DNA of 64,000 bases from the human T2T-CHM13v2.0 reference genome, Homo sapiens. Both the position numbers and the translations under genes were made by a program. Below, piece by piece: positions 1 to 64,000 of this stretch (position 1 is the first letter of the stretch; each line of letters starts with the position of its first letter). The stretch covers positions 23,872,001 through 23,936,000 of the forward strand of contig CP086569.2 in the NCBI GenBank assembly GCA_009914755.4. Reading direction: 5' to 3'. The notes beneath the pieces were generated by a model. That model did no database searches. It was not told the DNA's origin and saw nothing but the letters and a program-made list of their open reading frames with translations.

Positions 1-3000
1 AAGTGATATACTCTCCTCTTCTGCCTGGACACTACCCATAGGGGGCATTGTGCCATACAGTTGGGCACAGCCCCAAAGTTATATGATTTTTCTGCCAGGA
101 GCCTGCCTACAAGGAGAATATGGGAACATTTCTGCCTCAGCGTTTAGGTTATGTGGCTGTCATGCCTGTTTCATTACTGCAGAGTAAATTTTGACAAATA
201 ATTAGGCACAGCTCAATATTCTGACAAATCACTAGGCATGATAATGACTCATATGTGGACCTCCCAAATAGGAGTAAGTTTGACTCTTGTAACTCGCTTT
301 AGCAATGCAAGTGATGTCTTAGATCTCTTTCTGGTAAAAGGGTCACCGAAGATTATAACACCCTCAAATATTTTACAGCCCTTGGCTTGTACAGATAATG
401 CCATAACAAAACCCAAATGAAAGATGAAGTTGTGAGTCTCATATGCACACCCAGCTGACAGGAAGTACTGTCAGCATCTCATGTATATGAAGCCTACTGT
501 GAAACATGAAAACAGGACATGTATGTTATTGTAAATCTCATCTCTGCAATAATCTCCCAGTGTGAATGTCATACACATCTTTGCCAAGCATCTGTGTGAT
601 TTGACTCTCCAGACAGGTTCCAGCATGTATATGAGATTGTGATCTCTACCTGAGCCAGCGTCTAGGTGATGTGATTCTCCTGCCTGGACCCTTTTCTCAG
701 TAAGGATTGAGACATACCACTGGATCTAACATTCAGGTGATGTTACATTGTTGCCTGGACCATATTCACAGGCATCATTGTGACATATTACTGTGTCCAC
801 CACTTAGGTGATGTAACTCCCCTCTCTGGAATGGACCCTGAACACAGAGAATGGTAGTGCCATATTGGCAGGCCAGGGCATACAGGTGATGATACTCTTT
901 TGCCAGGGATATATTTCAAGGAGGTCATTGTGACATATCTCTGGGCCTGTCACCTAAGTGATGTGACCGAACGCTTGGGCCTCACCTACATAGATCGTTG
1001 CAACGTAAAAGTTAGACCTGCATCAAGATGATGTAACTCTTTCAATCTAGTGCTGTCCTAGGGAAACTTGTGACATATCTCAGCACCCAGCACCCAGGTG
1101 ATGTGGCTCTTCTGCCTGGGTTCTCCCCATGTGTTATATTGTGATGTACACATAAAGAAGCACCTACGTGATATGACCCACATTTTCTGCCTGAGTCCTG
1201 CCTACTGGGGACACTGGGACATATCTCTGAGCCCATGACCTAAGTGATATGACTCTCGCCCCCTGCCTGGGCTTTTAAAATAGTGGGATTATGACATATT
1301 GCTGAGCCCAGCATTTAGGTTGTGTGACTCTACTCTTTTTTTTGAACCATGCCCACAAAGGGAAATTTTGACCTATTGCACCCAGATGATGTTACTCTTC
1401 TGCCAGAATCCTGAATAAAGAGATAATTATTGCATAGTGATAAGTCCAGCACCCTGATGATGCTACTGTCCTGCCTGTGCCAGAGCCACAGAGGGTGTTT
1501 TGACACATCTTTGGCTTATTCTGTAAGTGTTTTGGCTCTCATCTCTTCATTATGTTTTTCCACATGTGGAATTGTGTCATATTGCTGGGTCCAGTATCCA
1601 GTTAATGTGGCCCTCTTTCCTAGACTCTGTGTAGAGAGAATATTGTGACATGTTAATTGCCACATCACCTAAGTAATGTTACACTTTTTTTTTCTAATTT
1701 TTTGCCCACAAATGGGATTATGGTTTATATCTTGCTTCAGTTCACAGGCATGATGAGCAAACTTATACTGGGATTCAGTCAATGGAAGATATTTTGCCAT
1801 TCATCACTAGGCTTATGGCAATAGAAAAAATTCTTGGTTGAATATTTCTACAAAGCTCACAGAAGTTTACGACACGAATTCCTGTGGTATAAACTTTATG
1901 GGTGGTACAGAGCATTTTATAACAAGGCCCAGCAAAAAGTTAAAATTGTGACTCTCAGTTTCACACCCAGGTGAAAGTAAAAGTTGTCACCATCCCACAT
2001 TTACAAAGTACACTATGGAGTTACTGAGTCTAACATGACAACACAGTACAAAAATGGAGTTGTGACTCTCACATGTGGATCTGGCCACAGGTGTAATCGT
2101 GACTCATTTTTGGGCCCAGCTCACAGGCATAAAAATGCTTCTCATTCCTGAATGTGGCCTAAATTAGAGATATTGACTATCATACCTGGATTTAAGACAA
2201 TATATAAGATTGTGAGTCCATATGAGCCTATGGGCCTCAGAGAAGTTTGCAAATATAATGGATGCCGTTTGAAGCCCTTGGATGTTGTAGAGGGTGTCAT
2301 TCGGTGGTCCAACACACACGTGACAATGTGACTTTGTTACAGACGCCAAGCTGACAGTTAAAGGTGTCACCCTCAAACATGAGGAGATTGTGTCATATCA
2401 CTGTGCCGAGTACCCAGGTGTTAAAACTTGTGCTTTAATTGTTTCCCATGTGTGTATTTTGACATATCATTGCATAAGAATCATAACAGTGTGACTCTTT
2501 TGCCTGGACCCTGACAGCAAGGGATATTATCACATTTCTCTGAGCCGATCAGCTAGGTGATTTGCCTATTTTTCCTGTACTTTTGCCCCAAGGCACATTG
2601 TGACATCAGTGGTCATAGCATCTAGGAAATGTGACTCTCGTCTCTTGCCTAGGTTCTGCCCACAAAAGGAATTGTGACATACTACTGAGCGCAAAACCTA
2701 GGTAATGTAACCATCCCCTTTATTCTGGAGGCAGCCAATAGGGGAAATTATTACGTATTGCTGAGCTAAGCACCTAGGAGGTGTGACTCTCCTCTTTTTC
2801 TTCAACCTTGTCTACAGTCGACATGGTGTCATATTCATTGAGGCTGTTCTCCGTTGACATGAATCTTCTGACTTGGCCTGCCTATGAAGGAGATTATAAT
2901 GAATTCTGTGCTCGGAATCCAAGTAAGGCAATTATGCTGCCTTGTTTCTGCCCACAGGTGAAATTTTAACATATACCTGAGTTCAGCTTACATACACAAA

Positions 3001-6000
3001 TATAACTATCATATCTTTACCCAGAAGGGAGACATATTTTTACTCTCATGGTCAGTCTCATGGCCATAAGTAAAGAAATGAGTCTCCTAATTGCATAAAG
3101 TTCACAAAGGATTATGACACTCAAGCATATCATATAAAGTCTGAGTGGTACACAAACTGTCATAACAGGGAACAGTAACCAGGTGCGATTGTGACTCTTG
3201 GATGCATGCCTAGCTGACACGATTGTCATTCCCTCACAAAAATATGATCTACAAATAAGGTACTAAATTGTTACAAAAAAGATCAGTTGAAGGTTGAAAT
3301 TGTTTCTCTCATACACAAATCTGACCCACAGGTGGTTTGGTGATACATGATTCAGCACAACTGTGAGGCCGTGACTCCCCTACTGGAACACAATCTTCAA
3401 GTGGGACTGGGCATCTTATACATGGATCTTGCCCATTGTTGAGATTGGGACTCCTCTGCTTTGACACAACTCACAGGAGGTGTTGACTCCTCCTGTACGT
3501 ACGTGAAGCCAGGACTTCTGTGACTGTGAAACATTTCTGAATATTTCCTACTGTGTGATTAGGACATAAAAGTTAGCCCAGCTCCTGAATAATTTGACTC
3601 TCTTCTTTAGGCCCATGACCACAGATGAAATTGTGATATACATGGACCATACACCTAAGCATAGGTGCCTGGGCCTGTAGACAAAGGGCACTTTTACATG
3701 TCACTGGGAACAGCTCCCAGGTAACGTGGATTATTTGCCTAATGCCTGCCTATGAAAAGCACTGTGGCTTATGTCTGGGTTCATCATGTAGTGATGTTAC
3801 TCAATTCTACTGCCTTGGCCCTGCACTAACGGTGCATTGTGACACATAACTGGGTACTGCTCCCAACTGATGGGACTCTCCATTTTGGTTTCTGCCATCA
3901 GAAAGCTTTGTAACATGTAACTTGGCTCAGCACCTAGATGATGTTTCTCCTCTCTTGACCTGCCCTGACCACAGGGGAGATTGTGACACATTGCTAAATC
4001 CAGCGCCAAGTTAAGGTCACTTTCAAACTTTGGTCCTGCACATAGTGGCCATTGTGACATTTATCTATACCAATTGCCTAGGTGAAGTGAGTCTCCTCTC
4101 CTTTCTAAGCCAAGCCCAAAAGGGAAATTTTGATACATCGTTTAAACCAGCATTCAGGTGATGTGATGCTTCTTCCAGAAGTCTGCCCACAATAAAGATT
4201 GTGACAGCTCACTGGACCAGCACCCACCCAGGTGATGTGACCTTTTTGCTTGCTGTCTGCCCATGGGGATATTGTGCCATACAACTGAGACCAGATAAGA
4301 GGACTAATCATGACTCTTAAACCTGGAGCCAGGTTATATGCATGATGGTGGCTCCCACTCCTGGAACTTTCCACCAGTGTTATTGTGACATACACTTCTG
4401 CCCAGTTCCTGAGTAATTTAGTAATCTTGCCTAGGTATAGCGCACAATTGAGATTTGGACATATATCTCAGCTGAGCACTTTGGTGATTTGATTCTCCTG
4501 TCTTAACGTTATCCTCAGGCACGTTTGTAGCATGTCTCTGGATCCATCATCTAGGTTACCTCAGTCCCCTCTCCTGCCTGAATTCTGCTTCCACTGGGTA
4601 TTGTAGCATTTTTAAACACTGCATTCAAATTATATGAATTTCTTGCCTGATCCTTTCAACAAGAGACATTATGACTTACCTCTGGACCTATCATTTACAT
4701 GATATGACTCTCCTCTTTTCTGGACCACTGCCCACAAGGGGTGTTGTGCCATACAGTTGGGCATAGGCCCAAAGTTATGTGATTTTTCTTCTAGGAATTT
4801 GCCAAAAAGAATAATATTGGAAGATTTCTGCCTCAGCATTTAGATTATATGGCTCTCATGCCTGTTTCATTACCACGGTGTAAATTGTGACATATATCTA
4901 AGCACAGCTCACAGGCATGATAAGGACTCCCATATGTAGAACCCTCAAATAGGAGTAATTTTTAATCTCATAACTTGCTTTAGAGTTATTTAAGTGATTA
5001 AGTTTCTTTATGGTAAAAAGATTGCAGAAGATTGTAACAGCATAAGTGATTTTAAAAAGCCTTCATCTTGTACAGAGGGTGTCATAACAGGACCTATCAC
5101 TAAGGTGAAATTGTGAGTCTCATATGAACACCCAGCTGACAGTTAAAGACTGTAACCATCTCATATATATAAAGCCAACTGTCACTGATAAAAATGGGAC
5201 ATATGTGGTATTGTTAGTCTCATCCTGGGAATTTTCTGCCAGTCTGACTGTGATATAAATCTTTTCCGAGCATCTGTGTGATTTGACTCTCCAGACCGGT
5301 TCCAGCCCAGTGATGTTATTTTGAAATCTATGAGGGCCAATCTCTAGGTGGTTTGACCCTTCTGCCTGGGCCCCACTCTCAGTAAGAATCAGCTGAGCCA
5401 TGCCCACATAAATTATTGTGACACATCACTGTGTCAACCACTTAGGCGATATAACTCTCCTCAGAACGGGCCCTGAACACAGTTGGGGATAGTGACATAT
5501 GGTTGAGCCACAAGTCACTATCCCCAGCAACCAGACAAGAATGTGACTCTCTATGCACACCTAGTTGATACAATTGTGATTCTCACGCATAAACAGGGCC
5601 TAGTAATGAGGTACTAAATCTCACACATAAAAGTCATCAAAGATTGAAATCATTACTCTCATACGGGGATTAGATTCACAGGTGTTTTGGCAACATTTGA
5701 ACCATGATTCAGCATGCCTGCGGTGCTGTGACTCCCCTACTGGAACACAATCTTCCAATGGGACTGGAGCTCCTATACATGGATCTTGACCATTGTTGAG
5801 ATTTTGACTCCTCTACTTCCACCAAACTCATAGAAAGAGTTGACGACTTACATACAGGAAACGAGAACTTATGTGGAATGCGAAACTTATTTGCAAACTT
5901 TTCTGAGCGTGTGATTGGGTCAGGTAACTTTTCCCAGCACATGAATGATTTGACTCTTTTTCTAGGCCCAGACCACAGATAAAATTGCGCCATAAGTATA

Positions 6001-9000
6001 ACAAACACCTTTGCAATATATAACATCTACCATGTTTCTCCTACAAAGGGCACTTTTATTTATCACTCGTATCGTCACCCTGGTGATGTGAATTATCTGC
6101 CTAAAACATGGCTACAAAGGGAATTGTGTTTTATAACTAGGTCCATCACATAAGTGATGTGACTCCCTTCTACTCCTTTAGCCCTGCACTTACAATGCAT
6201 TGTGACACATAACTGCATCCAGGTGATGTGATTCTTTTTGGGGGATTCTGCCAACAGAAAGCATTGAAACATAACGCTTGGCTGAGCACCTAGGTGACGT
6301 TGGTTCACTTTTCCTGTACCCTAACCACATGGAGATTGTGACATATTGCTGGTCCCAGCACCAATGTGAGGTCACTCTCCAGCTTTTGTACTGCACAGAA
6401 CAGACATTGTGACATAAATCTAGGCCAATTGCCTAGGTGAAGTAAGTCTCTTTCTTGTCAAAGTCTTGCCTACACACAAAGTTTTCATATGTCACTGAAA
6501 TCAGCATTCAGGTGATGTGACCCTTCAGCCAGTGTCCTGTCCACAAAGTAAGTTGTGATATCACACTGGAGCCAAACCCTCATAGGTTATGTGAATTTCT
6601 TGCTTTCCTTCTGGCCAGGTAATATTGTGCCATATACCACAAACCATAGCAAAAGTCTAATAACAACTCATATGAGTGGAGCCAGGACATATGCAGGATG
6701 GTGACCCTTATTCTTAAGCCTTTCCACAAGTGTAATTGTGTCTTATACCTTTGTCCAGCTCCTAAGTGATTTAATAATTCTGCATAGGTATAGCCCAAAA
6801 ACAATAGTCTCATAAGTACCTGAGCCAAGTAACTTGGTGATTTGACTGTGCTATCTTAACAATGTCCTCAAGGGGATTTGTAACATATTTCTGGACCCAT
6901 CATCTAGGTTGCATAACTCTCCTCTCCTGCCTGTACCTGGCTTCCTTTAGTAATTGTAGCATTTCCAAACACTGCATCCAAATGATATAAATCTCTTGCC
7001 TGGGCTCTGTCACAGGAAGCACTGTGACATATTTTTGGGCCCATCATTTTGGTGATATGACTCTCCTCTCCTGCCTGGAGACTGCCCACAAGAAACATTG
7101 TGACACAGAGCTGAACTGAGCACACAAATATATGATATTTGTGACAGAACCCTGCCTACAAAAAGAATACTGGAATATTTCTGGCCCAGCATTTAGGTGA
7201 TGTGCCTGTTCTGCCTGTTTCATAACCGCAGAGGGAATTAAATCCTATATCTAGGCATGGCTAACAGGAATGATAATGACTGTCGTATGTGGACTCAGGC
7301 AATAGAGGCTATTTTGACTTTTATAACTAGATAACTAGTTTTAGGGACATGACTGATACCGTGGACCATCTTTTATACAAAGGTTGCAAAAGATTACAAC
7401 ACTCACACATATTTTACCAAGTCTTTGGGTTATACAGAGGGAGTCAAAGCCGGGCTCAGCACACAGGTAAAATTGTGAGTCTTGTACTCACACCCAGCTG
7501 ACAGTAAGAATTATCATTACCTCACATGGATGAAGTCAATTGTCAAAGATGAAAATAAGAAATGATTGGTATTTAAAATCTCACCTTTGGAATTTTCTGA
7601 CAGTGTGATTGTGATATAAATTATTGCCAAGCACTTGTGTAATCTGACTCTCTAGACTTGTTTCAGCTCATATATGGGATTGTGATATCTACTTACGCCA
7701 GCCTCAAGGTGGTGTGACTCTCCTGCCAGGGCCCTTCTCTCCGTAAGGATTGTCTTATCACTGGATCTAGCACCCAGGTGATGTTACATTTTTGCCTGTG
7801 CCATGCCCACCAAAATTATTAGGACATATCCCTGTATTCGCCTCATAGGTTATATAACTCTCCTGTCTGGAATGGGCCCTGCACAAAGGAAATATAGAGA
7901 CATATTGCAAGGCCAGGCACACAGGCAAGAGAACTATTTTGCCACAGCCATGCCCAAAGAAGGGAATCATGACATATCTCTGGGCCTGCTACCTAGGCTA
8001 TGTGGGGCTCTTGTTGGGGTCCTGTCAACCTGGAGTGTGACATATTTCTAGGCAAGGCACACAGGTGATGGTACTCTTTTGCCAGGGCTATGTTCCATAG
8101 AGGATATTGTGACACATCTCTGGGCCTATCACCTAGGAGATGTGAGTCCCTCCTTGGACCCTACCCACATGGAGCATTGTGACATGAGCAGAGGACCTTC
8201 AATTAGTTGATGAAACTCTCTTTGCTGGGTGCTATGTGAAGAGATCCTTATGAAATACCTCAGAACCCAGCACTCAAGTGATGTGGACCTTCTGCCTGCA
8301 TGCTGCTCTCATGTTCCACTGTGACATATTCCTAGGGCAGCATCTAGGTGATATGACTCTCCACATCTGCCTGAGCCCTGACTACTTGGGACACCTTGCA
8401 ATATCTCTGAGCCCTTGACCTAAGTGATGTGGCTCTTTTGTTGCCTGGGCCTTCACGATAGGTGGATTTTGGCATATTGCTAAGCCCAGCACTCAAAACA
8501 TGTAACTCTCCTATTTTTCCTGAATTATACCCACAAAGAAGAAATTTTGACCTACTGAATGGCTCAACACCAAGGTGATTTTTCGCTTCTTCCTGGATTA
8601 TGCATAAAGAGGAAATTATGGCATATTGCATATTGCTAGGCCCAGCACCCTTATGACTGTGACTCTCCTGCCCATGCTGGAGCCACCGAATATACCTTGA
8701 CATGTCTTGGGCCCATTATGTAGGGGTTTTGGCTCTCATAACTTGGTTTGGTATTTTCCACATGTGAAATGTTGTCCAATGCTTGGTCCAGCACCAGGTT
8801 AATGTGACCCAAATTTTTATACCCTGCCTAGAGAAGGCATTGCGACATATTGCTTGGTACATGATCTATGTAATGTTACCCTCCTGTCTTGTTTTTTGCC
8901 CACATGTGGAATTATGACATATACCTTGCTTTAGTTCACAGGCACAAAGATCAAACTTATATTGGGATACAGCCAATAGGAGATATTTTTCCTCTCATTG

Positions 9001-9910
9001 TTTGGCTTAAGGCAATATTTAAGGTCCTGGGTTGCATATTTGTACTAACACACATAAGCTTACAACACTAACTTATATTGTTTAAACTCTTTGGTGGTAA
9101 AGAGTTTCATAACAGGGACCAGCAAAAGGTTCAGAATGGGACTCTTGGTTACACACCCAGGTGCAATTAAGAGTTGTCACCATTCCATATTTATAATTCC
9201 CACTATTGAGGTCCTGAGTCTAACAAAAGAATACAGTACACAGTTAAAATTGTGACATTTATATGTGGCTTTGGCCACAGGGGAGATGGTGATTCATTTC
9301 TGGACCCAGCCCACAGGCATAATAATGAGTCTTCTCCCTTAACCCTGCCTATAGATGTCGACTATCAAACGTGGTTTAGAGCAATATGCAAGATTGTGAG
9401 TCCATAGGAGCAGGCAGGCCACAGAGAGGTTTGCAACTCTCATACAGGTTTCATAAAGCCCTCGAATATTGTAGAGAAAGTTATATATTGTCTGAGCATA
9501 CATGTGAGATTGTGACTCTAATATACATGCTCAGCTAAATGTTAACAATGTCATCCTCAAAGATGATGGGATTGTGTCATATCACTGGGCCTAGTACCCT
9601 GGTGTTGAGACTTTTTGTCTCAAATCCCTTTCTGTGGGTGCATTGTTACATATCGATGGGTTAGAATCATAATAATTTGACTCCTCTGCCTGGGCCCTGT
9701 AAACAGGGAATATTATCACATATCTCTGGGTCTATCAGCTAGGTGATGTGTCTCTCCAGTCTGTGCTTTGCTCCCAGAGGACAGTTTTAAATATCACTGA
9801 AACTAGCGTCTATGTAATGTAACTCTTCTCTCCTGCCTGGGTCCTGCTTACCAAAGGAATTGTGACATATGGCTGAATGTAAAACCTAGGTGGTATGCCT
9901 GTACTCTCTC
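1..9910. repeat. Beta-satellite (Sau3A/BSR-type) tandem array of diverged ~68-76 bp monomers with higher-order repeat structure; continues past the left window edge; monomer consensus lies on the minus strand
   Basis: Two motifs, ATTGTGACATATCTCTGGGCC and AGGTGATGTGACTCTCCTCTTCTGCCTGG, alternate along the block, each recurring every ~68-77 bp (for example AGGTGATG-type motifs near 733, 806, 882, 955, 1027, 1095, 1166, 1243). Reverse complement matches my recollection of the beta-satellite core CAGAGATATGTCACAATGCCCC ... AGTTACATCACCT. Multi-kb internal homologies: 30-660 ~ 4745-5340 ~ 7130-7700; 1440-2830 ~ 8640-9910; 3170-3500 ~ 5520-5830. Confidence 0.75.
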
Positions 9911-11960
9911 TTCAACAGTTTATATCTGTGCTGCATTCTGTTTTATTACTTTGGTGCTCTATTTTTATACCAGTACCAGAGTGCTTTGATTACGACAGGT
10001 TTGTTTTGTGTTTGGAAATTGTTAAGTATAATGCTTCCAATATTTTAATTCTTTTTAAAGATTGCCAGGCTTTTCATGGTGCCTTGAGATCTTACATAAC
10101 TTTGTGGGGTTTTTTTCTATTTTTGCAAAAGTATAATTGAAAATTGAAACAGGCTGTGTTGAATGTGTTGGTCACTTTAAACAGCATGGGTATCTTCACA
10201 ATATTAGGTCTTCCAACCATTGAAAAAGAGCGTAATAAAAAGTGTGTTGTAGCTGGGGGTAGTGGCTCATGCCTCTAACCCAGAACTTTGAGAGGCCAGG
10301 AGGATGCATGGCTAGTTCAGGAGATCGAGATCATCCTAGCCAACATGGTGAAGCCCCGTCTCTGCTAAAATACATAAAATTAGCTGGGTGAGGTGGTGCA
10401 TGCCTGTAATCCCAGCTACTCAGAGACTGAGGCAGAAGAATCGCTTGAACCCGGAGGTGGAGGTTGCAGTGAGCTGATATTGCACGACTGCGCTTCAGCC
10501 TAGTGAAAGAGATACTCCATCTCAAAACAAAACAAAACAGGAAATTGTGTTGCTTAATCTTTATAAGTTTTGAATTTTTCAGCTTTTCTTCTGTTACTGA
10601 TTCCTAGTTTCATTCCATTTGGGCTGTAAATAATTGTAAAATTTTAGTTAAAAAATTATTAAGGCTTCTGTTGTGGTGTCACATGTGGTCCATCTAGAAA
10701 AATGTTTTCTGAGGTATTGAAAAGAATGTGATTCTGTTGTCTGCATACATTTGTTAGGTGTAACTATTGTGTAATGCATTCAGGTTTTTTGTTCCCTCGT
10801 TGATAGTCTCTCATTATTTATTTACTACTGAAAGTGAAATATTGATGTATTTCCATTATTATATGGTTGTCTATTTTTTCTTCAATTCTGTCAATGTTTG
10901 CTTTATGTGTTTGGGAAAATTGTCATATATTTATAAGTTATTAGTGAATAAACCCTCTTACTATAATTGAATGTCCTACTTTGTCTCTTGTTAATTTTCA
11001 CATAAAGTAAATTATATGAAATATGGTAGTTTTCATCTTAAGGAATTGTTGCCTCTTCTCCTCTCATTTGGTTAACACTTGCATGAAATGTATTTTTATC
11101 CTGTGATTTTCAGTCTTTTAAAATTAGATATGAAATGAGTCTTTTGAAGACATGACATAGTTAGATGTTCTTATAGATAGTGATAGAGGTCTTTTTTTTT
11201 TTCATTTTGAAGGATACTTTTGCAAAATATAGTATTCTTGTTTAGAACTTTTTTTTTTCAGCGTTTTACCAATGTCATCCTACCCGCTTCTTGCTTGAAA
11301 GATTTATGTTCATAAATTTACTGGTAATTTTGCAGAAGTGTGAATATAAATAATACATTTGTTTTTTTTTCTTTCTGCATTCTTCATTCTCTTTTATGTG
11401 ACTTCCAAAACGTTGCTTAACTTGTGTCTTGTTGTAAATCTCTTAATGTTAATTTTATTTGAAATTTGCTGAGCTTATTGATCTTCTCATTTTTTTTTTA
11501 CTAATGGTGAAGTACATATTAGTCTTTTTCTGTATTTCCACTCCACAATTTTTATTTCTTTTTGTGCTTTTTATTTTTTGTTGGTTTAATTTTTGTTATT
11601 TCATTTATTTCCTTTTTCTTAATTTATTTATTTCCATTTTACTCACGGAGCATCACTAAATCGGCAATGTTAATTTTTAAGGGTAATTAATTTTTTTAAG
11701 AATATATCTAGACTATAACTCATATTGTCTCTGTTAATTTTTACCTCCCCGTTTTTTAATAATTGATTTCTGGATATTTATTTTTATCTTTGATTGAGCC
11801 ATATTATCTTGATGTTTCATATATGTTGTAATCTTAGGTTGCAATTTGTATAATAAAATGTGACATGTCAAAATCTGTATTAAGTTTCTTTTGTCTGGGG
11901 GAATAAAATACACATTTTTTAGGCTAGATATTCTTCGGTCTCTAAAGCTTATTCTGTAAA
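9911..11960 (-). mobile_element. L1 fragment (older subfamily; antisense ORF2-N-terminal/ORF1 region), interrupted by the Alu at 10250-10545
   Basis: 10560-11045 resembles the reverse complement of the L1 ORF1/ORF2 junction region (…GAAAAGAATGTGATTCTGTTG… …CTTTGTCTCTTGTTAATTTTCACATAAAG…). 10140-10250 resembles the antisense L1 motif …TGTGTTGAATGTG…ATCTTCACAATATTAGGTCTTCCAA…; subfamily and exact limits uncertain. Confidence 0.45.
10250..10545 (+). mobile_element. Alu (AluS-like), full length
   Basis: GGCTCATGCCTCTAACCCAGAACTTTGAGAGGCCAGGAGG…GCCTGTAATCCCAGCTACTCAGAG…TGCAGTGAGCTGA… followed by an A-rich tail CTCAAAACAAAACAAAAC. Confidence 0.9.
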
Positions 11961-13042: not shown

Positions 13043-13849
13043 CATTCTCCATGTTTCTTATTGAGATCCTATAGTCAGTTGCTATACCCCTTTTCTGCCT
13101 TCACTTGTAACAGTCATTTAACTTTGGTCTCAGCTATCCAAAACTGTCAGTTACCAACTTTCCTTTCAACACTGCCATGGAATATAGAAATTAGTTTATT
13201 GTAAGGTCTCAAAAACCCAGAAGCATGGACACAGGTGTCACTATTTTATTTATTATTGGACGGTGGAGACAGGAGTTGGGAGTCGATATTTAAAGTCATC
13301 ATAGGATGAAGAATGGCTTTCGTGGGTAAACGCAAAATACTTTTATTAAACCACTATGTGGTTTTTTGCATTTTGCTCCCTTCGGGTGCTGCAAATTTTT
13401 ACCTGGTTATTAGACTTCTCACAAAGGCATTTTGATCGGTGTATTTCTGTTAAGTTTAAATTTGTATTAAGGAATTAGAGCCTGTGATATTTTATTGTCA
13501 CCTTGTTAATGTGCTTTGTTTAATTATATATTTGTAAGTTGTATTCACCTGAGTCTAATGAGGGAGAGATTTATAGTCCTTTTATTTTCTTAGCTTTCTC
13601 TTTTTATTTTACTGTAGAGCTATTGCTGGAGTATGACATAAAAGAATCATTTCAAAAAGTGATCCTGAGAAAATATGGTAGCTGTGACCTTAATGGTTTA
13701 TATTTAAGGAAAGACTACCAAAGTGTGGGTAATTCCCATGTGCAGAAAGCAGTTATGATGGGCTTTATCAATGTTTGTTAATTACCCTTAGCAAAACCTG
13801 TCAACCTAATAAATAAGGCAAAGCTTTTGAGTTGTGCTCAAACTTCACT

Positions 13850-14830
<981 letters not shown>

Positions 14831-18042: not shown

Positions 18043-18700
<658 letters not shown>

Positions 18701-34195: not shown

Positions 34196-35261
34196 GGTGC
34201 CTAGCAGTAAAACTAATTAAGAAATAAACACTGTCTACACTGTAAATCATAAAACACTTATAAAGAAAGTAAGACATGAAAAGTTTGAGAGATATTTTTG
34301 CTCATTAGTTATAAAACATATTGTTAAAATGGCTTTGCCACTCAAGGGCATCTACAGATTCAATGCAAACTCTATAAAATACCAAATGACATTTTTTTCA
34401 CAGAAATGGAAAAAACAGGCCAAAAATTCATAGAAAACAAAAGAAAACCTCTCCAAATAGCCAAAGTAATCCTATGAAAAAAGAACAACCTGAAAGCATC
34501 AAAGCACCTGACTTTAAAATATCCTACAAAGCTACAACAAGCAAAAGAGCATGACACTGGCATAGAAAACAGACACATAGACCAAAGTATGCAGCGATCC
34601 CAATAGTAAATTCAGAAACCTAGGGCCAAGTAATTTTTAAGCTGTTTGGAATATGCACTTAAGAAACGACAATCTTTTCAATGAATGGTGCTAGGAAAAT
34701 TGATTATTTAAATGAATATAACTAGATGTCAACTGGTTACCTACCATATTAAAACAACTTAATTATATATAATTAGAAGACTTAAAGGTACAACTCAATC
34801 TTAAAAACTATTTGAATAAAACATAGGGAAATGATTTACAAAATAGGACAGGAAGAAAATGTAAATAAGAACTCAAAAGCATAGGCAACAAAAGCAAAAG
34901 CAGGCAAGTGAATTTAACAGAATCTAAAAAATATCACATAGCAAAAATAAATTAATAGAGTAGAGACAACTTACAGTGTGGGAGGATATATTTGCAAAAT
35001 ATACATACGACAAGGGATAATCACACAAAATATATAACAAACACAAAAGCAAAAATAACCAGAATTTAGTAATACATGAGAGACCTTAAGTGAAATTTCT
35101 CCAAGGAAGACATACAAATGGCCAAGTACCTGCAAAGATGGTCAACACTATTAATTATTAGAAAAATGCAAATTAAAGCCACAATAAGATACCAGATTAC
35201 TCCAGTTCAGATGGATATAATCAGAAATAATACGTTAATACGTTCCTGCCACTTTCAACAG
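34196..35261 (+). mobile_element. L1 ORF2 distal segment in sense orientation (older L1), truncated at 35261 where beta-satellite starts
   Basis: …AGATTCAATGCAAACTCTATAAAATACCAAATGACATTTTTTTCACAGAAATGGAAAAAACAGGCCAAAAATTCATAGAAAACAAAAGAAAACCTCTCCAAATAGCCAAAG… matches L1 ORF2 [38 protein letters not shown]…. Later segments match …KEDIQMAKYLQRWSTLLIIRKMQIKATIRYQITPVQMDIIRNN… (L1 …[48 protein letters not shown]). Confidence 0.8.
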
Positions 35262-36962
35262 GAGGCATTGTGACATATCTCTGGGCCTATTATTTAGGTG
35301 ATATGACTCTCCTCTTCTGCCTGGAAACTGCCTACAAGGGCCATTGTGCCACAGAGTTAGGCGTAGCCCCAAAGTTATGTGACATTTCTGCCAGGAACTT
35401 GCCTGAAAAGAGAATATTGGAATATTTCTGCCTCGGCATTTAGGTTATATGGCTGTCATGCCTGTTTCATTACCACAGAGTAAATTTTGACATATGCCTT
35501 GGCACAGCTCACAGGCATCATAATGACTCTGATATGCGGACCCCAGAAACAGGAGTTAATTTGACTTTTGTAACTTGCTCTAGAAACACGAGTGATGTCT
35601 TGGATCTCTTTCTGGTAAAAAGGCCACAGAAGATTATAACAGCCTCAGATATTTTATAAAGCCCATGACTTGTACAGAGAGTGTCTTAACAAAACCCAGA
35701 AGGATGAAATTGTAAGTTTCACATGCACACCCACCTTAAAGTAAGGACTGTCAGATCTCACATTGTCACTCATGAAAACAGGACATGTGTGGTATTATAA
35801 ATCTCATCTCTGGTATGTTCTACCAGTGTGAATGTGATACAAATATTTGCAAGCATCTGTGTGATTTGACCCTCTAGATTGGTTTCAGCCCACATAAGGG
35901 ATTGTGATCTCTACCTGGGCCAACTTCTAGATGATATGACTCTCCTCCCTTGGATGTCCTCTCAGGATTGTGACATATCACTGGATGTAAAACCCAGGTG
36001 ATGTTACAGCTTCTAGAGGATGTGACCATCCTGCCTTTGCCATTCTCTAAGGATTGTGAAATATTACCAGATCTAACACCCAGATGATGTTACATTCTTG
36101 CCTGCGCCATTTCCGCAGACATCATTGTAACATATCACTGTGTCCACCACTTAGGAAATGTAACTCTCCTCTCTGGAAAGGACCCTGAACACAGCAGGTG
36201 GTAGTAACATATTGCTAGGCCCAGGCACACAAGTGACGGTACTCTTTTGCCAGGGCTGTGTTTTAAACAGGGCATTGTGACATATCTTTGGGCATATTAC
36301 CGAGGTGATGTGACTCAAAGCTTGGGCCTCACCCACGTAAGGCACTGTGACATAAAAGTTGAACCTACACCAAGGTGATGTAACTCTTTCACCTTGATTC
36401 TATCCTAAGGGAGCCTTGCAACATATCTCAGGACCCAACACCCGGGTGATGTGGTTCTTCTGCTTGGTTTCTGTCTATGTCTTATACTGTGACGTATACC
36501 TAAAGAAGAACCTAGGTGATAAGACTCTCCTTTTCTGCCTGAGTCCTGCCTAATGGGGACACTGGGACATATCTCTGAGGCCATAACCTAACTGACATGA
36601 CTCTCTTTCCCTGCCTGGGCCTTTCAAATGGTGGAATTGTGACATATTGCTGAGCACAGCATTTAGGTCATGTGACTCTCCTGTTTTTATCTGAACCGTG
36701 CCCACAAAGAAAAATTTTGACGATTTGCACACAGAGGATGTTACACTTCTGCTACGACACTGAATAAAGAGGGAATTATTGCATACTGGTGGGCCCAGCA
36801 GCCTGATGATGCTACTGTCCTGCCTGTGCCAGAGCCACAGAGGGTATTTTGACATATCTTCGTCCCATTCTGTAGGTGTTTTAGCTCTTATCCCTTGGCT
36901 AACTTTTTCTACATGTGGAATTGAGTGATACTGCTGGACGCAGCACCCAGTTAATGGCCATT
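35262..36962. repeat. Second beta-satellite block; a diverged copy of window positions ~1-1620
   Basis: Same monomer motifs; collinear homology to 30-1620, e.g. CCCAAAGTTATGTGA...TTTCTGCCTC(A/G)GC(A/G)TTTAGGTTATATGGCTGTCATGCCTGTTTCATTAC and ...GATGCTACTGTCCTGCCTGTGCCAGAGCCACAGAGGGT(G/A)TTTTGACA. Ends abruptly at ~36962. Confidence 0.75.
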
Positions 36963-41011: not shown

Positions 41012-42570
41012 ATTATTCTCTTATCTGGCCCCACCCACATCCTGCTGATTGGTCCATTTTAGAGAGAGCCGATTGGTCTGTTTTACAGAGCGCTGAATGG
41101 TCTGTTTTGACAGGGTGCTGACTGGTGCATTTACAATCCCTGAGCTAGACAAAGAGGTTCTCCACATCCCCACTAGATTAGCTACATAGAGAGTGTCGAT
41201 TGGTGTATTTACAAATCCTGAGCTAGACACAGAGTGCTGATTGGTGCATTTACAAACCTTGAGCTAGATACAGGGAGCCAACTGGTGCATTCACAATCCC
41301 TTAGCTAGACATAAAGATTCCCCAAGTCCCCACCAGATTAGCTAGACACAGAGCTCTGATTGCTACACTTACAAACCTTTAGCTAGACACAGAGTGCTGA
41401 CTGGTGCATTCACAATCCCTTAGCTTGACATAAAGGTTCTCCAAGTCCCCACTAGATTAGCTAGATACAGAGTGCCAATTGGTGCATCCACTAACCCTGA
41501 GCTAGACACAGTGTGCTGATTGGTGTGTTTACAAACCTTGAGCTAGATACAGAGTGCTGATTGGTGTATTCACAATCCCTTAGCTAGACATAAAGATTCT
41601 CCAAGTCCCCACCAGATTAGCCAGATACAGAGTGCCGGTTGGTACATCCACAAATCCTGAGCTAGACAGAGGGTGCTGATTGGTGTGTTCACAAACCTTG
41701 AGCTAGATACAGAGTGCTGATTGGTGTATTCACAATCCCTTAGCTAGACATAAAGACTCTCCAAGTCCCCACCAGATTAGCTAGATACAGAGTGCCGGTT
41801 GGTGCATCCACAAACCCTGAGCTAGACACAGGGCGCTGATTGGTGTGTTCACAAACCTTGAGCTAGACACAGCGTGCTGATTGGTGCACTCACAATCCCT
41901 TAGCTAGACACAGAGGTTCTCCAAGTCCCCACTAGACTCAGGAGCCCAGCTGGCCTCACCCAGTGGATCTTATACCAGGGCCACAGGTGGAGCTGCCCGC
42001 CAGTCACTCACCGTGCGCCTGCACTCCTCAGCCCTTGGGCGGCCGATGGGACCAGGCACCATGGAGTAGGGGGTGGCGCTCGTCCAGGAGGCTCAGGCCA
42101 TGCAGGAGCCCATGGCGGTTGGGGGAGACTCAGGCATGGTGGGCTGCAGGTCCCAAGCCCTGCCCCGTGGGGAGGCAGCTAAGGCCGGGTGAGAAATCCA
42201 GCACAGCGCTGGTGGGTCAGCACTGCTGGGGGACCCGGCACACCCTCTGCAGCTGCTGGCCTGGGTACTAAGTCCCTCACTGCCTGGGGCTGGCAGGGCT
42301 GGCCGGCCACTGCAAGTGCAGGGATCAGCAAGCCCACACCCACCCAGAACTCTAGCTGGCCCACAAGCACTGCACGCAGCCCTGGCTCCCACCCCTGCCT
42401 CTCCCTCCACACCTCCCCGCAAGCTGAGGGAGCTGGCTCCGGCCTCGGCCAGCCCACACAAGGGCTCCCATGGTGCAGTGGAAGGCTGAAGGGCTCCTCA
42501 AGCATGGCCAGAATGGGCGCTGAGGCTGAGGAGGCACCGAGAGTGAGCCAGGGCTGTCAGCATGCTGTCA
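41012..42570 (-). mobile_element. LTR12-type (ERV9/HERV9) LTR; the 3' LTR of a minus-strand provirus; appears truncated at its R/U5 end (~41012) and lacks the first ~200 bp of U3
   Basis: 41020-41940 is a CCAAT-box tandem-repeat block (…CTGATTGGTGCATTTACAAACCTTGAGCTAGACACAGAGTG… repeated), i.e. the reverse complement of the LTR12 U3 repeats. 41940-42570 is the GC-rich U3 body, paralogous to 49260-50010. Homology to the other LTR starts only at …TTATTCTCTTATCTGGCCCCACCCACATCCTGCTGATTGG. Confidence 0.8.
41030..41940 (-). promoter_or_regulatory. LTR12 U3 enhancer tandem repeats: ~18 units of ~37-45 bp each carrying ATTGG (CCAAT-box, NF-Y-type) motifs
   Basis: Repeated …GCTAGACA(C/T)AGAGTGCTGATTGGTG(T/C)ATT(T/C)ACAA(A/T)CC(T/C)T… counted by eye. 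Confidence 0.7.
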
Positions 42571-42989
42571 CCTCTCAATCCCCCCTGGCAGTTTTGGAGA
42601 GTCACTGCTGCCAAAGAGTCTATTTGGGATTATAAAGTAAGAACAGATTTCGCTATTTCTTGCAAACTGTCTGAGATATCCTTGGAGAGTGTGTGGTAGT
42701 AGGATAATGAAGTAGATAAACCACATATTCTGGTTCCTGTAGCCATAGCCATTCCTAACCCTTTAAGGAGGGGTATTAGTTGTATGGCTCTGCACTGACA
42801 GACTTGAGCTTTGAGGGGTACTGATAAGGTCTGATTTCCTGGGGCAATGATAATGTTGGGACTTAGACTAAGGTGCAGGTGCCTGTCAAGTTAGTGGGGA
42901 GGCAGATACAGGTCGTTGTTCCACATAAGAAGAATCTGCCTTGTCTGGGTAGACAGAACTTAACCCTGGCTTTTAAAGGAATAGTGTAC

Positions 42990-48175: not shown

Positions 48176-50050
48176 TGTGTCCGGAATTGGTGGGTTCTTG
48201 GTCTCACTGACTTCAAGAATGAAGCCGTGGACCCTTGTGGTGAGTGTTACAGTTCTTAAAGGCAGCATGTCCGGAGATTTTCCCTTCTGGTGTGCGGATG
48301 TGTTTGGAGTTTCTTCCTTCTGGTGGGTTTGTGGTCTCGCTGGCTGATGAGTGAAGCTGCAGACTTTCGCGGTGAGTGTTACAGCACTTAAGGCAGCACG
48401 TCTGGAGTTGTTCGTTCCTCCCAGTGGGTTCATGGTCTCGCTGGCTTCAGGAGTGAAGCTCCAGACCTTTGCAGTGAGTGTCACAGCTCATAAAGGCAGT
48501 GTGGACCCAAAGAGTGAGCAGTAGCAAGATTTATTGCAAAGAGCAAAAGAACAAAGCTTCCACAGAGTGGAAGGGGACCCGAGCAGGTTGCCACTGTGGG
48601 CTCAGGCAGCCTGCTTTTATTCTGTTATCTGACCCCACCCACATCCTGCTGATTGGTCCATTTTAGAGAGAGCCGATTGGTCTGTTTTACAGAGAGCCAA
48701 TTGGTCTGTTTTACAGAGAGCTGATTGGTCTGTTTTGACAGGGTGCCGATTGGTGCATTTACAATCCCTGAGCTAGACGCAAATGTTCTCCACCTCCCCA
48801 CTAGATTAGCTAGATACAGAGTGTCGATTGGTGTATTTACAAACCCTGAGCTAGACACAGAGTGCTGATTGGTGCATTTACAAACCTTGAGCTAGATACA
48901 GAGTGCCGACTGGTGCATTCACAATCCCTTAGCTAGACATAAAGATTTTCCAAGTCCCCACCAGATTAGCTAGATACAGAGCTCTGATTTGGTGCATTTA
49001 CAAACCTTGAGCTAGACACAGAGTGTGGACTGGTGCAGTCACAATCCCTTAGCTGGACATAAAGATGCTCCAAGTCCCCACCAGATTAGCTAGATACAGA
49101 GTGTCGGTTGGTGCATCCACAAACCCTGAGCTAGACAAAGGGTGCTGACTGGTGTGTTCACAAACCTTGAGCTAGACACAGAGTGCTCATTGGTGCACTC
49201 ACAATCCCTTAGCTAGACACAAAGGTTCTCCAAGTCCCCACTAGATTCAGGAGCCCAGCTGGCCTCACCCAGTGGATTTCACACCGGGAGGCAGGTGGAG
49301 CTGCCCACCAGTCCCTCACCATGCACCCACACTCCTCAGCCCTTGAGTGGTCAATGGGACCGGGTGCCCTTGAACAGGGGGCGGTGCTCACTGGGGAGGC
49401 TCAGGCCAGGCAGGAACCCATGGTGGGGAGGGGGGGTGATGGCGGGGACTGAGGGGGGTGGCAGGAGGGATTGGGTGGGTGGGAGCGGTTGGGGGGGGCG
49501 GTTTTGTGAGGACAGCGGCGGAGGGCGGGCGGCGGTACGGGTGTGGAGCCTCAGGCATGGGGGGCTGCACGTCTGGAGCCCTACCGCACGGGGAGGCAGC
49601 TAAGGCCCGGCGAGAAATCGAGGGCAGCACCAGTGGGCCAGCCGTGCTGGGGGACCCGGTGCACCCTCACAGCTGCTGGCCTGGGTGCTAAGCACCTCAC
49701 TGCCTGGGTACAGCAGGGCCGTCTGGCTGGCTGCTCCGAGTGCGGGCCTGCCAAGCCCACACCCACCCGGAACTCAAGCGGGCCCGCAAGCGCCGGGAGC
49801 AGCCCCGGATCCCCCCGCCGTGCCTCCCCCTCCATACCTCCCACAAGCGGAGGGAGCCGCCTCCAGCCTCGGCCAGCCCAGAGAAGAGCTCCCATGGTGC
49901 AGCGGCAGGCTGAAGGGCTCCTCAAGTGCAGCCAGAATGAGCACTGGGGCCGGGGAGGCACCGCGAGCAAGCGAGGGCTGCCAGCACGCTGTCACCTCTC
50001 ACTAAGACAGAGATTCTCAAGTTTTTCCAGTTCACAGCTCCCCTAGTATC
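48176..50050 (-). mobile_element. LTR12-type (ERV9) LTR; the 5' LTR of the minus-strand provirus (U5, R, CCAAT tandem repeats, GC-rich U3)
   Basis: 48176-48610 is the reverse complement of U5/R (…GCAGCCTGCTTTTATTCTGTTATCTGACCCCACCCACATCCTGCTGATTGGTCC…; the polyadenylation signal appears as TTTATT). 48640-49260 is the ATTGG tandem-repeat block. 49260-50046 is the GC-rich U3, ending CTCACTAAGACAGAGATTCTCAAGTTTTTCCAGTTCACAGCTCCCC, which is the reverse complement of LTR12 …GGAGCTGTGAACTGGAAAAACTTGAGAATCTCTGTCTTAGTGAG. Confidence 0.85.
48640..49260 (-). promoter_or_regulatory. LTR12 U3 enhancer tandem repeats: ~13 ATTGG (CCAAT-box) units, fewer than in the 3' LTR
   Basis: Repeated …CTGATTGGTCCATTTTAGAGAGAGCCGATTGGTCTGTTTTACAGAGAGCCAATTGG… then …GCTAGACACAGAGTGCTGATTGGTGCATTTACAAACCTTGAGCTAGATACAGAGTGCC…. 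Confidence 0.7.
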
Positions 50051-58384: not shown

Positions 58385-58600
58385 GAAGAAAAGAAAAAAG
58401 AGAAGAGAGAAGGAGGAAGGAAGGAGAGAAAGGAAGGAAAGAAGGAAGGAAGGAAGGAGGGAACAAAGGAAGGAAGGGAGGGATGGAGGGAGGAAGGAAG
58501 AGAAGGGAAGAAGGAAGGAAAGAAGGAAGGAAGGAAGGAAGGAAGGAAGGAAGGAAGGAAGGAAGGAAGGAAGGAAGGCAGGCATGTATTTTAAACTGAG
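58385..58600. repeat. (GGAA)n-rich compound purine microsatellite, ~215 bp
   Basis: Direct reading: …GGAAGGAAGGAGAGAAAGGAAGGAAAGAAGGAAGGAAGGAAGG… ending in a pure (GGAA) run of ~17 units. Confidence 0.95.
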
Positions 58601-59799: not shown

Positions 59800-59995
59800 T
59801 AGAGTAGGAGGCAGAGAATAGGGAAGAAAGGACGGGAGGAGGGAAGAAAGGAAAGAAGGACGTGAGAAGGAAAGGAAGGGAAGGAGAGAAGGACAGAAGA
59901 AATGAGGGAGGGAGGGAGGAAATGAAGGAAAGAGGGGAGAAGAGAAGGAGGGGAGAAGGGGAGGAGGGAGGGACGGAGTGAAGGAAAGAAGCCAG
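59800..59995. repeat. Purine-rich (GGAA/GGGA/GAAG) low-complexity tract
   Basis: Direct reading: GGAGGCAGAGAATAGGGAAGAAAGGACGGGAGGAGGGAAGAAAGGAAAGAAGGACGTGAGAAGGAAAGGAAGGGAAGG…. Confidence 0.85.
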
Positions 59996-63779: not shown

Positions 63780-64000
63780 TTCTCTCTTCTTCTTCTTCTT
63801 CCTCCTCTTCTTCTTCTTCTGCTTCTTCTTCTTCTTCCTCTTCTCCTTCTTCTTCTTCCTCTTCCGCTTCCTTCTCTTCTTCTTCCCCTTCTTCCTCTTC
63901 TTCTTCTTCTTTTTTCTTTTCTTCTCATTCTCCTCCTCCTCCTCCTCCCCCTCCCTCCTCCTCCTCCTCTTCTTCTTCTTTTTTTTTTTTTTTTTTTTTT
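63780..64000. repeat. (CTT)n/(CCT)n pyrimidine microsatellite (~180 bp) running into poly(T) at the window edge
   Basis: Direct reading: TCTTCTTCTTCTTCCTCCTCTTCTTCTTCTTCTGCTTC… …CTCCTCCTCCTCCTCCCCCTCCCTCCTCC… then T24 at 63977-64000. Confidence 0.95.

What the first reader, a model, noticed from the sequence alone, without database searches (positions are those of the whole stretch)
1..9910. Beta-satellite array with nested multi-kilobase higher-order structure
The first ~9.9 kb is a tandem array of diverged ~68-76 bp monomers whose reverse complement matches the beta-satellite (Sau3A) core. Above the monomer level there are long collinear homologies, judged by eye: ~30-660 recurs at ~4745-5340 and ~7130-7700; ~1440-2830 recurs at ~8640-9910; ~3170-3500 recurs at ~5520-5830. 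This implies a ~7.1-7.2 kb super-unit containing ~2.35 kb sub-periodicities. Such structured higher-order blocks are assembly-prone and often copy-number variable between individuals.
Basis: partly seen in the sequence, partly recalled or inferred. Interest (0 to 1): 0.5.

Follow-up and report, generated by a model that had tools for sequence, protein, structure and literature searches.

The report
Old, decayed beta-satellite block
The first 9.9 kb of the window is an ancient, heavily mutated stretch of primate beta-satellite DNA whose multi-kilobase internal repeats are real but are fossils of old duplications, next to a dead zinc-finger gene: an ordinary, already described kind of sequence.

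Summary
Window 1-9905 is a one-orientation array of about 135 degenerate beta-satellite-type monomers (spacing 70-71 and 75-76 bp, mean pairwise identity 52%). Off-diagonal homologies lie at 2.35, 4.7 and 7.05-7.18 kb, far above a monomer-permutation control.

The layout is A0-tail | B1 | A1 | A2 | B2, with A about 2.35 kb and B about 2.32 kb. The likely ancestral period is A+B (about 4.7 kb) with one B missing, not a 7.1 kb unit.

The copies are only 68-77% identical (K2P 0.30-0.43). So the "assembly-prone, copy-number variable" reading is not supported.

The structure is not locus-specific:
- A 1.7 kb fragment at 35252-36956 matches window 3-1607 at about 80%.
- Sixteen unrelated contigs carry collinear A/B pieces at 67-89%.
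- Unit A2 groups with those contigs rather than with its own neighbours.

The monomers differ from canonical 68 bp beta satellite: no Sau3A site, 42% G+C, CpG o/e 0.16.

A degenerate KRAB-ZNF finger exon lies 3.6 kb downstream. This fits the beta-satellite/ZNF architecture named in the title of Eichler et al. 1998, whose details I recall from memory.

Verdict: an ordinary relic satellite, already a known kind, of low interest. The chromosomal location could not be determined.

The parts
1..856 (+). A0: last ~850 bp of an A-type block, cut by the window edge, so the array continues to the left
   Evidence: Collinear with 4700-5389 (74.9%) and 7052-8004 (71.0%). Collinear with 35298-36008 at 79-83%.
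857..3172 (+). B1: complete B-type block (~2.32 kb, about 33 monomer lengths, partly degenerate)
   Evidence: 857-2703 matches 8037-9891 at 72.1%; K2P 0.34. Not collinear with A blocks.
3173..5524 (+). A1: complete A-type block (2352 bp)
   Evidence: 3173-5389 matches 5525-7750, offset 2352, 70.8%; K2P 0.36.
5525..8036 (+). A2: second A-type block, directly following A1. This A->A junction was not seen in any other contig.
   Evidence: In the NJ tree A2's tail groups with the contigs L021, L060, L036 and L045 rather than with A0/A1 (split bootstrap 1.0). Junction survey.
8037..9905 (+). B2: B-type block, truncated at the point equivalent to ~2725 of B1 where an L1 fragment begins
   Evidence: The last monomer hit ends at 9868. 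Sequence beyond 9905 reads as antisense L1 ORF2 by eye.
35252..36956 (+). Detached 1.7 kb fragment of the same family, spanning an A-tail to B-head junction. It is the closest relative of window 3-1607.
   Evidence: BLASTN gives 79.0% (35298-36008 vs 3-747) and 81.2% (36007-36956 vs 656-1607). K2P 0.19-0.21. 19 monomer-profile hits, all + strand. A local 86-bp duplication lies at 35924-36094.
13540..14830 (+). Context: degenerate finger exon of a ZNF91-like KRAB zinc-finger gene (pseudogene, with frameshifts and stop codons), 3.6 kb downstream of the array
   Evidence: TRF finds an 84-bp period at 13886-14753. Three-frame translations show frameshifts and stops. The best protein hit is 'zinc finger protein 736 [Callithrix jacchus]', 68% identity over 99% of the composite, collinear finger by finger.

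Best explanation
This is a relic block of a divergent beta-satellite subfamily, with monomers of 70-71 and 75-76 bp and no Sau3A site. It is now decaying essentially neutrally.

Inferred history:
1. A beta-satellite array whose monomers had already diverged to about 50% identity.
2. Unequal exchange or segmental duplication of multi-kb pieces. This produced a tandem of A+B super-units of about 4.7 kb. One B was later lost, or one A gained, between A1 and A2. That gives the observed 2.35, 4.7 and 7.05-7.18 kb offsets.
3. Dispersal of multi-kb pieces of this structure to other sites, including 35 kb downstream and many other loci, probably as passengers of the segmental duplications that expanded a pericentromeric KRAB-ZNF cluster.
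4. No homogenisation since. Each copy has accumulated 10-20% substitutions, lost its CpGs and dropped from about 50% to 42% G+C.

Shown: the anatomy, the identities, the multi-locus family and the tree. Inferred: the order of events, the link to ZNF-cluster expansion, and present-day inertness.
For: - Same-strand monomer array and periodicity.
- Homology to canonical beta satellite and to published BSR primers.
- Long collinear homologies that beat the permutation control.
- K2P 0.30-0.43 inside the array, against 0.19-0.21 to the fragment at 35.3 kb.
- Sixteen contigs carry collinear A/B pieces at 67-89% and share the 70-72/75-76 bp, GATC-poor, 43-47% G+C character.
- NJ tree: {A0, A1, 35-kb fragment} versus {A2 plus contigs}, bootstrap 1.0. 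A2 is closer to the contigs (K2P 0.20-0.23) than to its neighbours (0.33-0.41).
- Single alignments span the A->B junction in 7 contigs and the B->A junction in 2-3, but the A->A junction in none.
- CpG o/e 0.157, G+C 42.4%, only 16 GATC sites in 9.9 kb.
- Substitution load in recognisable monomers equals that in the degenerate stretches.
- Adjacent dead ZNF91-like finger exon.
- The existence of complex beta-satellite structures in the 19p12 ZNF cluster is documented by the title of Eichler et al. 1998, seen in reference lists. Its details are from my memory.
Against: - The chromosomal location could not be established. The ZNF pseudogene's best hit is named ZNF736, whose human namesake I recall at 7q11.21 rather than 19p12. 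The link to the published 19p12 architecture is therefore by analogy.
- The contigs come from metagenome assemblies and are presumed to be host (human or primate) contamination. If some come from distant primates they could be orthologues rather than paralogues.
- Only about 1.4 periods are visible, so 'A+B with one B lost' and 'A-B-A super-unit' cannot be separated rigorously.
- A/T sites of the two conserved cores change slightly less than other A/T sites (7.2% vs 11.2%). Strict neutrality does not predict this.
Confidence: 0.85

Rival explanations
1. This is a living higher-order-repeat array. A 7.1-7.2 kb unit with 2.35 kb sub-units is tandemly repeated and kept similar by ongoing unequal crossing-over. 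It is therefore prone to assembly collapse and varies in copy number.
For: Off-diagonal lines at 2.35, 4.7 and 7.1 kb are real. The array runs off the left edge of the window, so more copies may exist.
Against: Copies are 68-77% identical (K2P 0.30-0.43). That is far below what sustains homologous exchange or confuses assemblers. A2 is closer to copies at other loci than to A0/A1, the opposite of local homogenisation. TRF finds no array.
Confidence: 0.04
2. The true repeating unit is A-B-A (about 7.1 kb), rather than A-B (about 4.7 kb) with a lost B.
For: A0+B1 (3-2703) is collinear with A2-tail+B2 (7052-9891) at a 7.05-7.18 kb offset. A1 could be the third element of unit 1.
Against: The A->A junction that this model needs at every unit boundary is absent from all 15 paralogous contigs examined. 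A->B and B->A junctions recur. A0's tail is closer to A1's (K2P 0.30) than to its supposed positional counterpart A2's (0.34), and A2 sits in a different clade.
Confidence: 0.12
3. The array is a selected functional element. It might be a heterochromatin nucleator or boundary, or a platform for a DNA-binding protein, in a KRAB-ZNF cluster. The conserved cores ATTGTGACATAT and GGTGATGT would be the binding sites.
For: The 17-mer ATTGTGACATATCTCTG recurs 38 times on the + strand at <=3 mismatches, against 0.18 expected. Core A/T sites changed less than other A/T sites (7.2% vs 11.2%, p=0.007, counts not independent). Single 4qA beta-satellite units have reported enhancer activity and ZNF555 binding (PMC4787827).
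Against: G/C sites show no core effect (14.4% vs 16.6%, not significant). Degenerate stretches evolve at the same rate as the recognisable monomers. 43% of the block no longer scores as monomer. The test rests on about 8 monomers and is confounded by shared ancestry and by ascertainment of the motif. The two primers specific to the ZNF555-bound 4qAe unit give one and zero matches in the window at <=3 mismatches, no more than chance.
Confidence: 0.06
4. It is not beta satellite but another tandem family or a transposon-derived repeat that resembles it by chance.
For: The monomer is 70-71/75-76 bp rather than 68 bp, there is no Sau3A site, G+C is 42%, and TRF is silent.
Against: The consensus aligns to canonical beta satellite over 63 columns with 54 identities, score 87 against a shuffled maximum of 32. 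The window-derived profile hits canonical 68-bp arrays monomer by monomer (91 hits in L061).
Confidence: 0.01

Closest known systems
Canonical beta satellite (Sau3A family, BSR/Beta) of acrocentric short arms and chromosomes 1, 9, Y and 4qA/10q
   Same: Homologous monomer: 54 of 63 consensus positions identical, with the cores GGTGATGT and ATTGTGACATATCTCTG shared. Head-to-tail, single-orientation arrays.
   Different: Canonical arrays recovered here have 68-69 bp monomers, about one GATC per monomer, 46-57% G+C and 74-83% TRF match. PMC4787827 gives 67-69 bp, a Sau3AI site and 53% G+C. The window has 70-71/75-76 bp monomers, 16 GATC in 9.9 kb, 42% G+C and 52% monomer identity, and is invisible to TRF.
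Beta-satellite blocks interspersed with ZNF91-family genes in 19p12 (Eichler et al., Genome Res 1998; 8:791)
   Same: Diverged beta satellite with multi-kb higher-order structure beside a ZNF91-like KRAB-ZNF gene copy. The family is present at many loci, and the age is of the order of early primate evolution.
   Different: The paper could not be read here; only its title was seen. From memory it describes 25-30 kb inverted, symmetrical blocks. In this window the two blocks are direct, and >=9.9 kb and 1.7 kb long. The neighbouring pseudogene's best hit is named ZNF736, so the locus may be a different pericentromeric ZNF cluster.
Divergent or monomeric alpha-satellite layers flanking active centromeric HOR arrays
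   Same: Works like it: an old satellite layer that has dropped out of homogenisation and keeps only low-identity traces of former higher-order units. This comparison rests on my general knowledge.
   Different: A different satellite family and monomer length. No active homogeneous core is visible in this window.

Membership tests
Beta satellite (Sau3A / BSR) | Monomer sequence homologous to the beta-satellite consensus | tested here: met
   The 71-bp consensus built from the window matches 54 of 63 positions of the consensus of canonical 68-bp arrays. It matches 41 of 50 positions of a 53-mer assembled from published BSR/4qA primers. Shuffled controls score at most 32 and 27.
Beta satellite (Sau3A / BSR) | Monomer length 67-69 bp | tested here: not met
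   Spacing modes are 70-71 and 75-76 bp. Canonical contigs give 68-69 bp with the same profile. The definition is taken from PMC4787827 and PMC8125562.
Beta satellite (Sau3A / BSR) | One Sau3AI (GATC) site per monomer | tested here: not met
   16 GATC sites in 9910 bp, about 0.1 per monomer and not in phase. The consensus reads CTGGGCCCAGCACC where the canonical one reads CTGCACTGATCACC.
Beta satellite (Sau3A / BSR) | Head-to-tail tandem array in one orientation | tested here: met
   92 hits on the + strand and none on the - strand at E<0.05. Regular spacing.
Beta satellite (Sau3A / BSR) | G+C-rich (about 53%) | tested here: not met
   42.4% G+C and CpG o/e 0.157. This is consistent with long decay from a richer ancestor.
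Classical higher-order repeat (HOR) array | A multi-monomer unit repeated in tandem | tested here: inconclusive
   A1/A2 are adjacent 2.35 kb copies, and A0-B1 matches A2-B2. Only 1.4 to 2 periods are visible, and the order A,B,A,A,B is irregular.
Classical higher-order repeat (HOR) array | Unit copies far more alike than monomers within a unit, typically >95% identical (from my knowledge) | tested here: not met
   Unit copies are 68-77% identical, against 52% between monomers. The direction is right, but the level is that of a fossil.
ZNF-cluster-associated beta-satellite blocks (Eichler 1998 type) | Lies beside a ZNF91-family KRAB-ZNF gene or pseudogene | tested here: met
   A degenerate finger exon lies at 13.5-14.8 kb. 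It includes the spacer motif ESFQKVILRKY, which I recall as typical of the ZNF91 family. Best hit is marmoset 'ZNF736', 68% identity over 99% of the composite.
ZNF-cluster-associated beta-satellite blocks (Eichler 1998 type) | Located in 19p12 | not testable with these tools
   No primate genome assembly is searchable here. The look-up of encoding contigs found no record for P0001.
ZNF-cluster-associated beta-satellite blocks (Eichler 1998 type) | Same block structure present at several loci of the genome | tested here: met
   16 of the 120 contigs carry collinear A/B segments at 67-89% identity. The caveat is that the origin of these contigs is presumed host DNA.

The most novel reading that the evidence does not exclude
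The two short cores that survive in these otherwise decayed monomers (GGTGATGT and ATTGTGACATAT) might be kept by selection as binding sites for a sequence-specific factor, for instance a KRAB zinc-finger protein. These relic blocks would then act as heterochromatin nucleation or boundary elements that are co-duplicated with, and help to organise, pericentromeric ZNF gene clusters.
Probability: 0.05. Interest if true: 0.5.

Novelty: already known. Interest (0 to 1): 0.13.

Why it matters
It matters little beyond annotation. The block is a useful worked example of how an old satellite records duplication history. Its internal units are older than the dispersal of the blocks, so such blocks can serve as markers for ordering the segmental duplications that built a KRAB-ZNF cluster. 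In practice, copies this divergent should not trouble assembly or read mapping, and no special copy-number instability is expected.

Tried and rejected
- Tandem Repeats Finder at default settings finds nothing in 1-9910. The monomers are too diverged, so I used a profile built from the window instead.
- Eichler 1998 and Waye & Willard 1989 could not be retrieved. Full-text searches for consensus fragments gave only primers. Literature searches for modern descriptions of ZNF-cluster beta satellite gave reference-list mentions only. PMC4787827 has no supplements held as text.
- The two 4qAe-specific primers give one and zero matches in the window at <=3 mismatches, no more than chance. Only the comparison at consensus level is informative.
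- I tested whether B is a diverged copy of A. There is no collinear chain, only short hits in the degenerate parts at inconsistent offsets of about 2.78 and 3.15 kb.
- I tested whether the flanks of the paralogous contigs match the window's flanks. They do not.
- My first per-position conservation table was mis-phased. The corrected version is biased by ascertainment. I replaced it with an ancestor-based test, which gave at most a weak core effect.
- The look-up of encoding contigs holds no record for the marmoset protein, so no orthologous locus could be fetched.
- Rfam finds no match in the whole window.
- Translating 42.6-48.7 kb, between the two 41-bp-repeat blocks, showed no clear retroviral reading frame by eye.
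Full report
**What the window is.** The sequence is primate-like. It has Alu-like repeats by eye (for example 10250-10540), L1 fragments, an 84-bp-period zinc-finger array at 13886-14753, and blocks of 41-bp repeats at 41.0-41.9 and 48.7-49.2 kb. No reading frame longer than about 200 aa looks like an intact gene.

**Checking the observation: monomers.** Tandem Repeats Finder reports nothing in 1-9910. Base autocorrelation nevertheless peaks at lags 71, 76, 36-38 and 146, which control regions lack.

I built a monomer profile iteratively from one window monomer. It gives 110 + strand hits from 16 to 9868. A full-length profile gives 92 hits at E<0.05 on the + strand and none on the - strand. 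Spacing between successive hits is mostly 70-71 or 75-76 bp. The 51 cleanly delimited monomers are on average only 52% identical to each other, which explains TRF's silence.

Significant hits cover 57% of the region. The gaps are 215-594, 1736-2380, 2988-3410, 4910-5276, 5510-5944, 7259-7637 and 8650-9565. They keep weak similarity to the consensus on the forward strand only. A majority consensus of the three copies of one such stretch recovers more monomers, leaving a core of about 330 bp that was already degenerate when the copies were made.

**Checking the observation: higher order.** Self-BLASTN gives four long collinear matches:
- 3173-5389 ~ 5525-7750 (offset 2352, 70.8%)
- 857-2703 ~ 8037-9891 (offset 7180, 72.1%)
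- 3-965 ~ 7052-8004 (offset 7049, 71.0%)
- 4-707 ~ 4700-5389 (offset 4696, 74.9%)

Counts of shared 9-mers by offset reach 179, 88 and 135 in the 2350, 4650 and 7150 bins. The largest bin in 200 permutations of 71-bp blocks held 69.

**Anatomy.** The region parses as follows:

| Block | Coordinates | Note |
|---|---|---|
| A0 tail | 1-856 | cut by the window edge |
| B1 | 857-3172 | complete, ~2.32 kb |
| A1 | 3173-5524 | complete, 2352 bp |
| A2 | 5525-8036 | directly follows A1 |
| B2 | 8037-9905 | truncated |

B is not collinear with A beyond monomer-level similarity. B2 stops at the equivalent of B1 position ~2725, where a 3'-truncated antisense L1 ORF2 fragment begins (by eye). That junction is therefore a breakpoint, not a simple insertion.

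**Family assignment.** A scan of metagenome contigs for the 17-mer ATTGTGACATATCTCTG returned 120 contigs. Several are labelled human gut or oral metagenome, and many have coverage of 1-3x, so I take them to be host DNA.

Many of them are textbook arrays. They have TRF period 68, about one GATC per monomer, 46-57% G+C, and the consensus CCCAGGTGATGTAACTCTTGTCTAGGCTCTGCCTACAGGGGCATTGTGACATATCTCTGCACTGATCA. This fits the published definition of beta satellite: 67-69 bp, a Sau3AI site and 53% G+C (PMC4787827; PMC8125562).

The window's 71-bp consensus is TAGGTGATGTGACTCTTCTGCCTGGGCCCTGCCCACAGGGGACATTGTGACATATCTCTGGGCCCAGCACC. It matches the canonical consensus at 54 of 63 aligned positions. It matches a 53-mer assembled from published BSR/4qA primers at 41 of 50. 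Shuffled controls score far lower. The 17-mer itself occurs 38 times on the + strand of the two blocks at <=3 mismatches, against 0.18 expected.

The block fails three descriptive criteria, however. The monomer is 70-71/75-76 bp. There is no Sau3A site (16 GATC in 9.9 kb). G+C is 42.4%, with CpG o/e 0.157.

**The structure is neither confined to 1-9910 nor locus-specific.** A 1.7 kb fragment at 35252-36956, in the same orientation, is collinear with window 3-1607 at 79-81% identity (K2P 0.19-0.21). That is closer than anything inside the array, where K2P is 0.30-0.43.

Sixteen of the 120 contigs carry collinear A or B segments at 67-89% identity. They share the 70-72/75-76 bp, GATC-poor, 43-47% G+C character.

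In a neighbour-joining tree of the ~740 bp A-tail, {A0, A1, 35-kb fragment} separates from {A2, L021, L060, L036, L045} with bootstrap 1.0. L075 joins the first group in 99% of replicates. A2 is closer to the contigs (K2P 0.20-0.23) than to A0 or A1 (0.33-0.41). The internal units are therefore older than the dispersal of the blocks, and there has been no local homogenisation since.

**Which period?** Single alignments span the A->B junction in seven contigs and the B->A junction in two or three. None spans an A->A junction like 5524/5525. The simplest model is an ancestral tandem of A+B super-units of about 4.67 kb, which equals the observed A0->A1 offset of 4696. A B was then lost, or an A gained, between A1 and A2. 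That alone yields the 2.35 and 7.05-7.18 kb offsets.

**Age and mode of evolution.** Per-lineage change from the inferred A-tail ancestor is about 11% at A/T sites and 17-19% at G/C sites. The rate is the same in recognisable monomers and in degenerate stretches. Judged against typical Alu-family divergences from memory, this points to tens of millions of years. The oldest events would be roughly 50 My or more, and the K2P ~0.2 dispersal somewhat younger. This is a rough inference, not a dated result.

A/T sites in the two conserved cores changed a little less than other A/T sites (7.2% vs 11.2%, p=0.007 on non-independent counts). G/C sites show no difference. I regard this as inconclusive. 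It is compatible with mutational bias and with ascertainment of the motif.

**Surroundings.** A degenerate KRAB-ZNF finger exon starts 3.6 kb downstream of the array and runs from 13.5 to 14.8 kb on the + strand. It has frameshifts and stop codons. A frame-corrected composite is 68% identical over 99% of its length to 'zinc finger protein 736 [Callithrix jacchus]'. It is collinear finger by finger, including the spacer ...DIK(E/D)SFQKVILRKY.... All other listed hits are 34-48% identical.

This is a ZNF91-like family member. From memory, human ZNF736 lies in the 7q11.21 pericentromeric cluster, whereas the published beta-satellite/ZNF architecture is in 19p12. I could not determine which locus this window comes from, because no primate assembly is searchable with these tools.

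**Interpretation.** The best explanation is a relic, non-homogenising block of a divergent beta-satellite subfamily. It was carried along by the segmental duplications that built a pericentromeric KRAB-ZNF cluster, and it is now decaying essentially neutrally.

The kind of structure is already known. The title of Eichler et al. [quoted passage not shown] From memory, standard repeat annotation lists BSR/Beta and divergent subfamilies. Interest is low.

Noticed in passing
window 35252-36956: A second, detached 1.7 kb piece of the same beta-satellite A/B structure, spanning an A-tail to B-head junction. It is about 80% identical to window 3-1607, closer than any pair inside the main array. It carries a local 86-bp duplication at 35924-36094. 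Its left edge abuts a + strand L1 ORF2 fragment cut mid-frame, which indicates a rearrangement breakpoint rather than an insertion.
   Followed up: yes
window 13540-14830 (+): A degenerate finger exon of a ZNF91-like KRAB zinc-finger gene, with about 10 fingers, several frameshifts and stop codons. The best hit is marmoset 'ZNF736' at 68% identity. No KRAB exon was looked for systematically.
   Followed up: partly
window 41044-42635 and 48672-50046 (+): Two blocks about 7.6 kb apart in the same orientation, each with 41-bp tandem repeats (unit AGCTAGACACAGAGTGCTGATTGGTGCATTCACAAACCCTG) followed by G+C-rich sequence. They are 81-91% identical to each other. From memory they look like a pair of ERV9/LTR12-type LTRs. 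The interval between them showed no clear retroviral reading frame by eye.
   Followed up: partly
window 18325-18690 and 58409-58582: Long (GAAG)n / (GAAGGAAGAAAG)n purine-rich microsatellites, with a further GA-rich tract at 59820-59989. A (TTC)n/(CTC)n tract lies at 63780-63969.
   Followed up: no
L114 (contig OJMB01000324.1) 943-4143: One contig carries pieces of the same block family in both orientations: + matches to window 1919-2150 and 3079-3489, and - matches to 6978-7105 and 3326-3658. This is an inverted arrangement, reminiscent of the inverted beta-satellite blocks I recall from the 19p12 description.
   Followed up: no
L021 and L060: Two contigs from different assemblies differ by only K2P 0.04 over the A-tail, while every other pair differs by 0.18 or more. 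They could be a very recent paralogue pair, the same locus in two host species, or low-coverage assembly error.
   Followed up: no
literature (PMC5762523): A paper on ZNF208 SNP genotyping prints an oligonucleotide containing GTTACATCACCTG, the beta-satellite core in the conventional orientation. This may mean that some assayed ZNF208 SNPs lie in or beside beta-satellite sequence.
   Followed up: no
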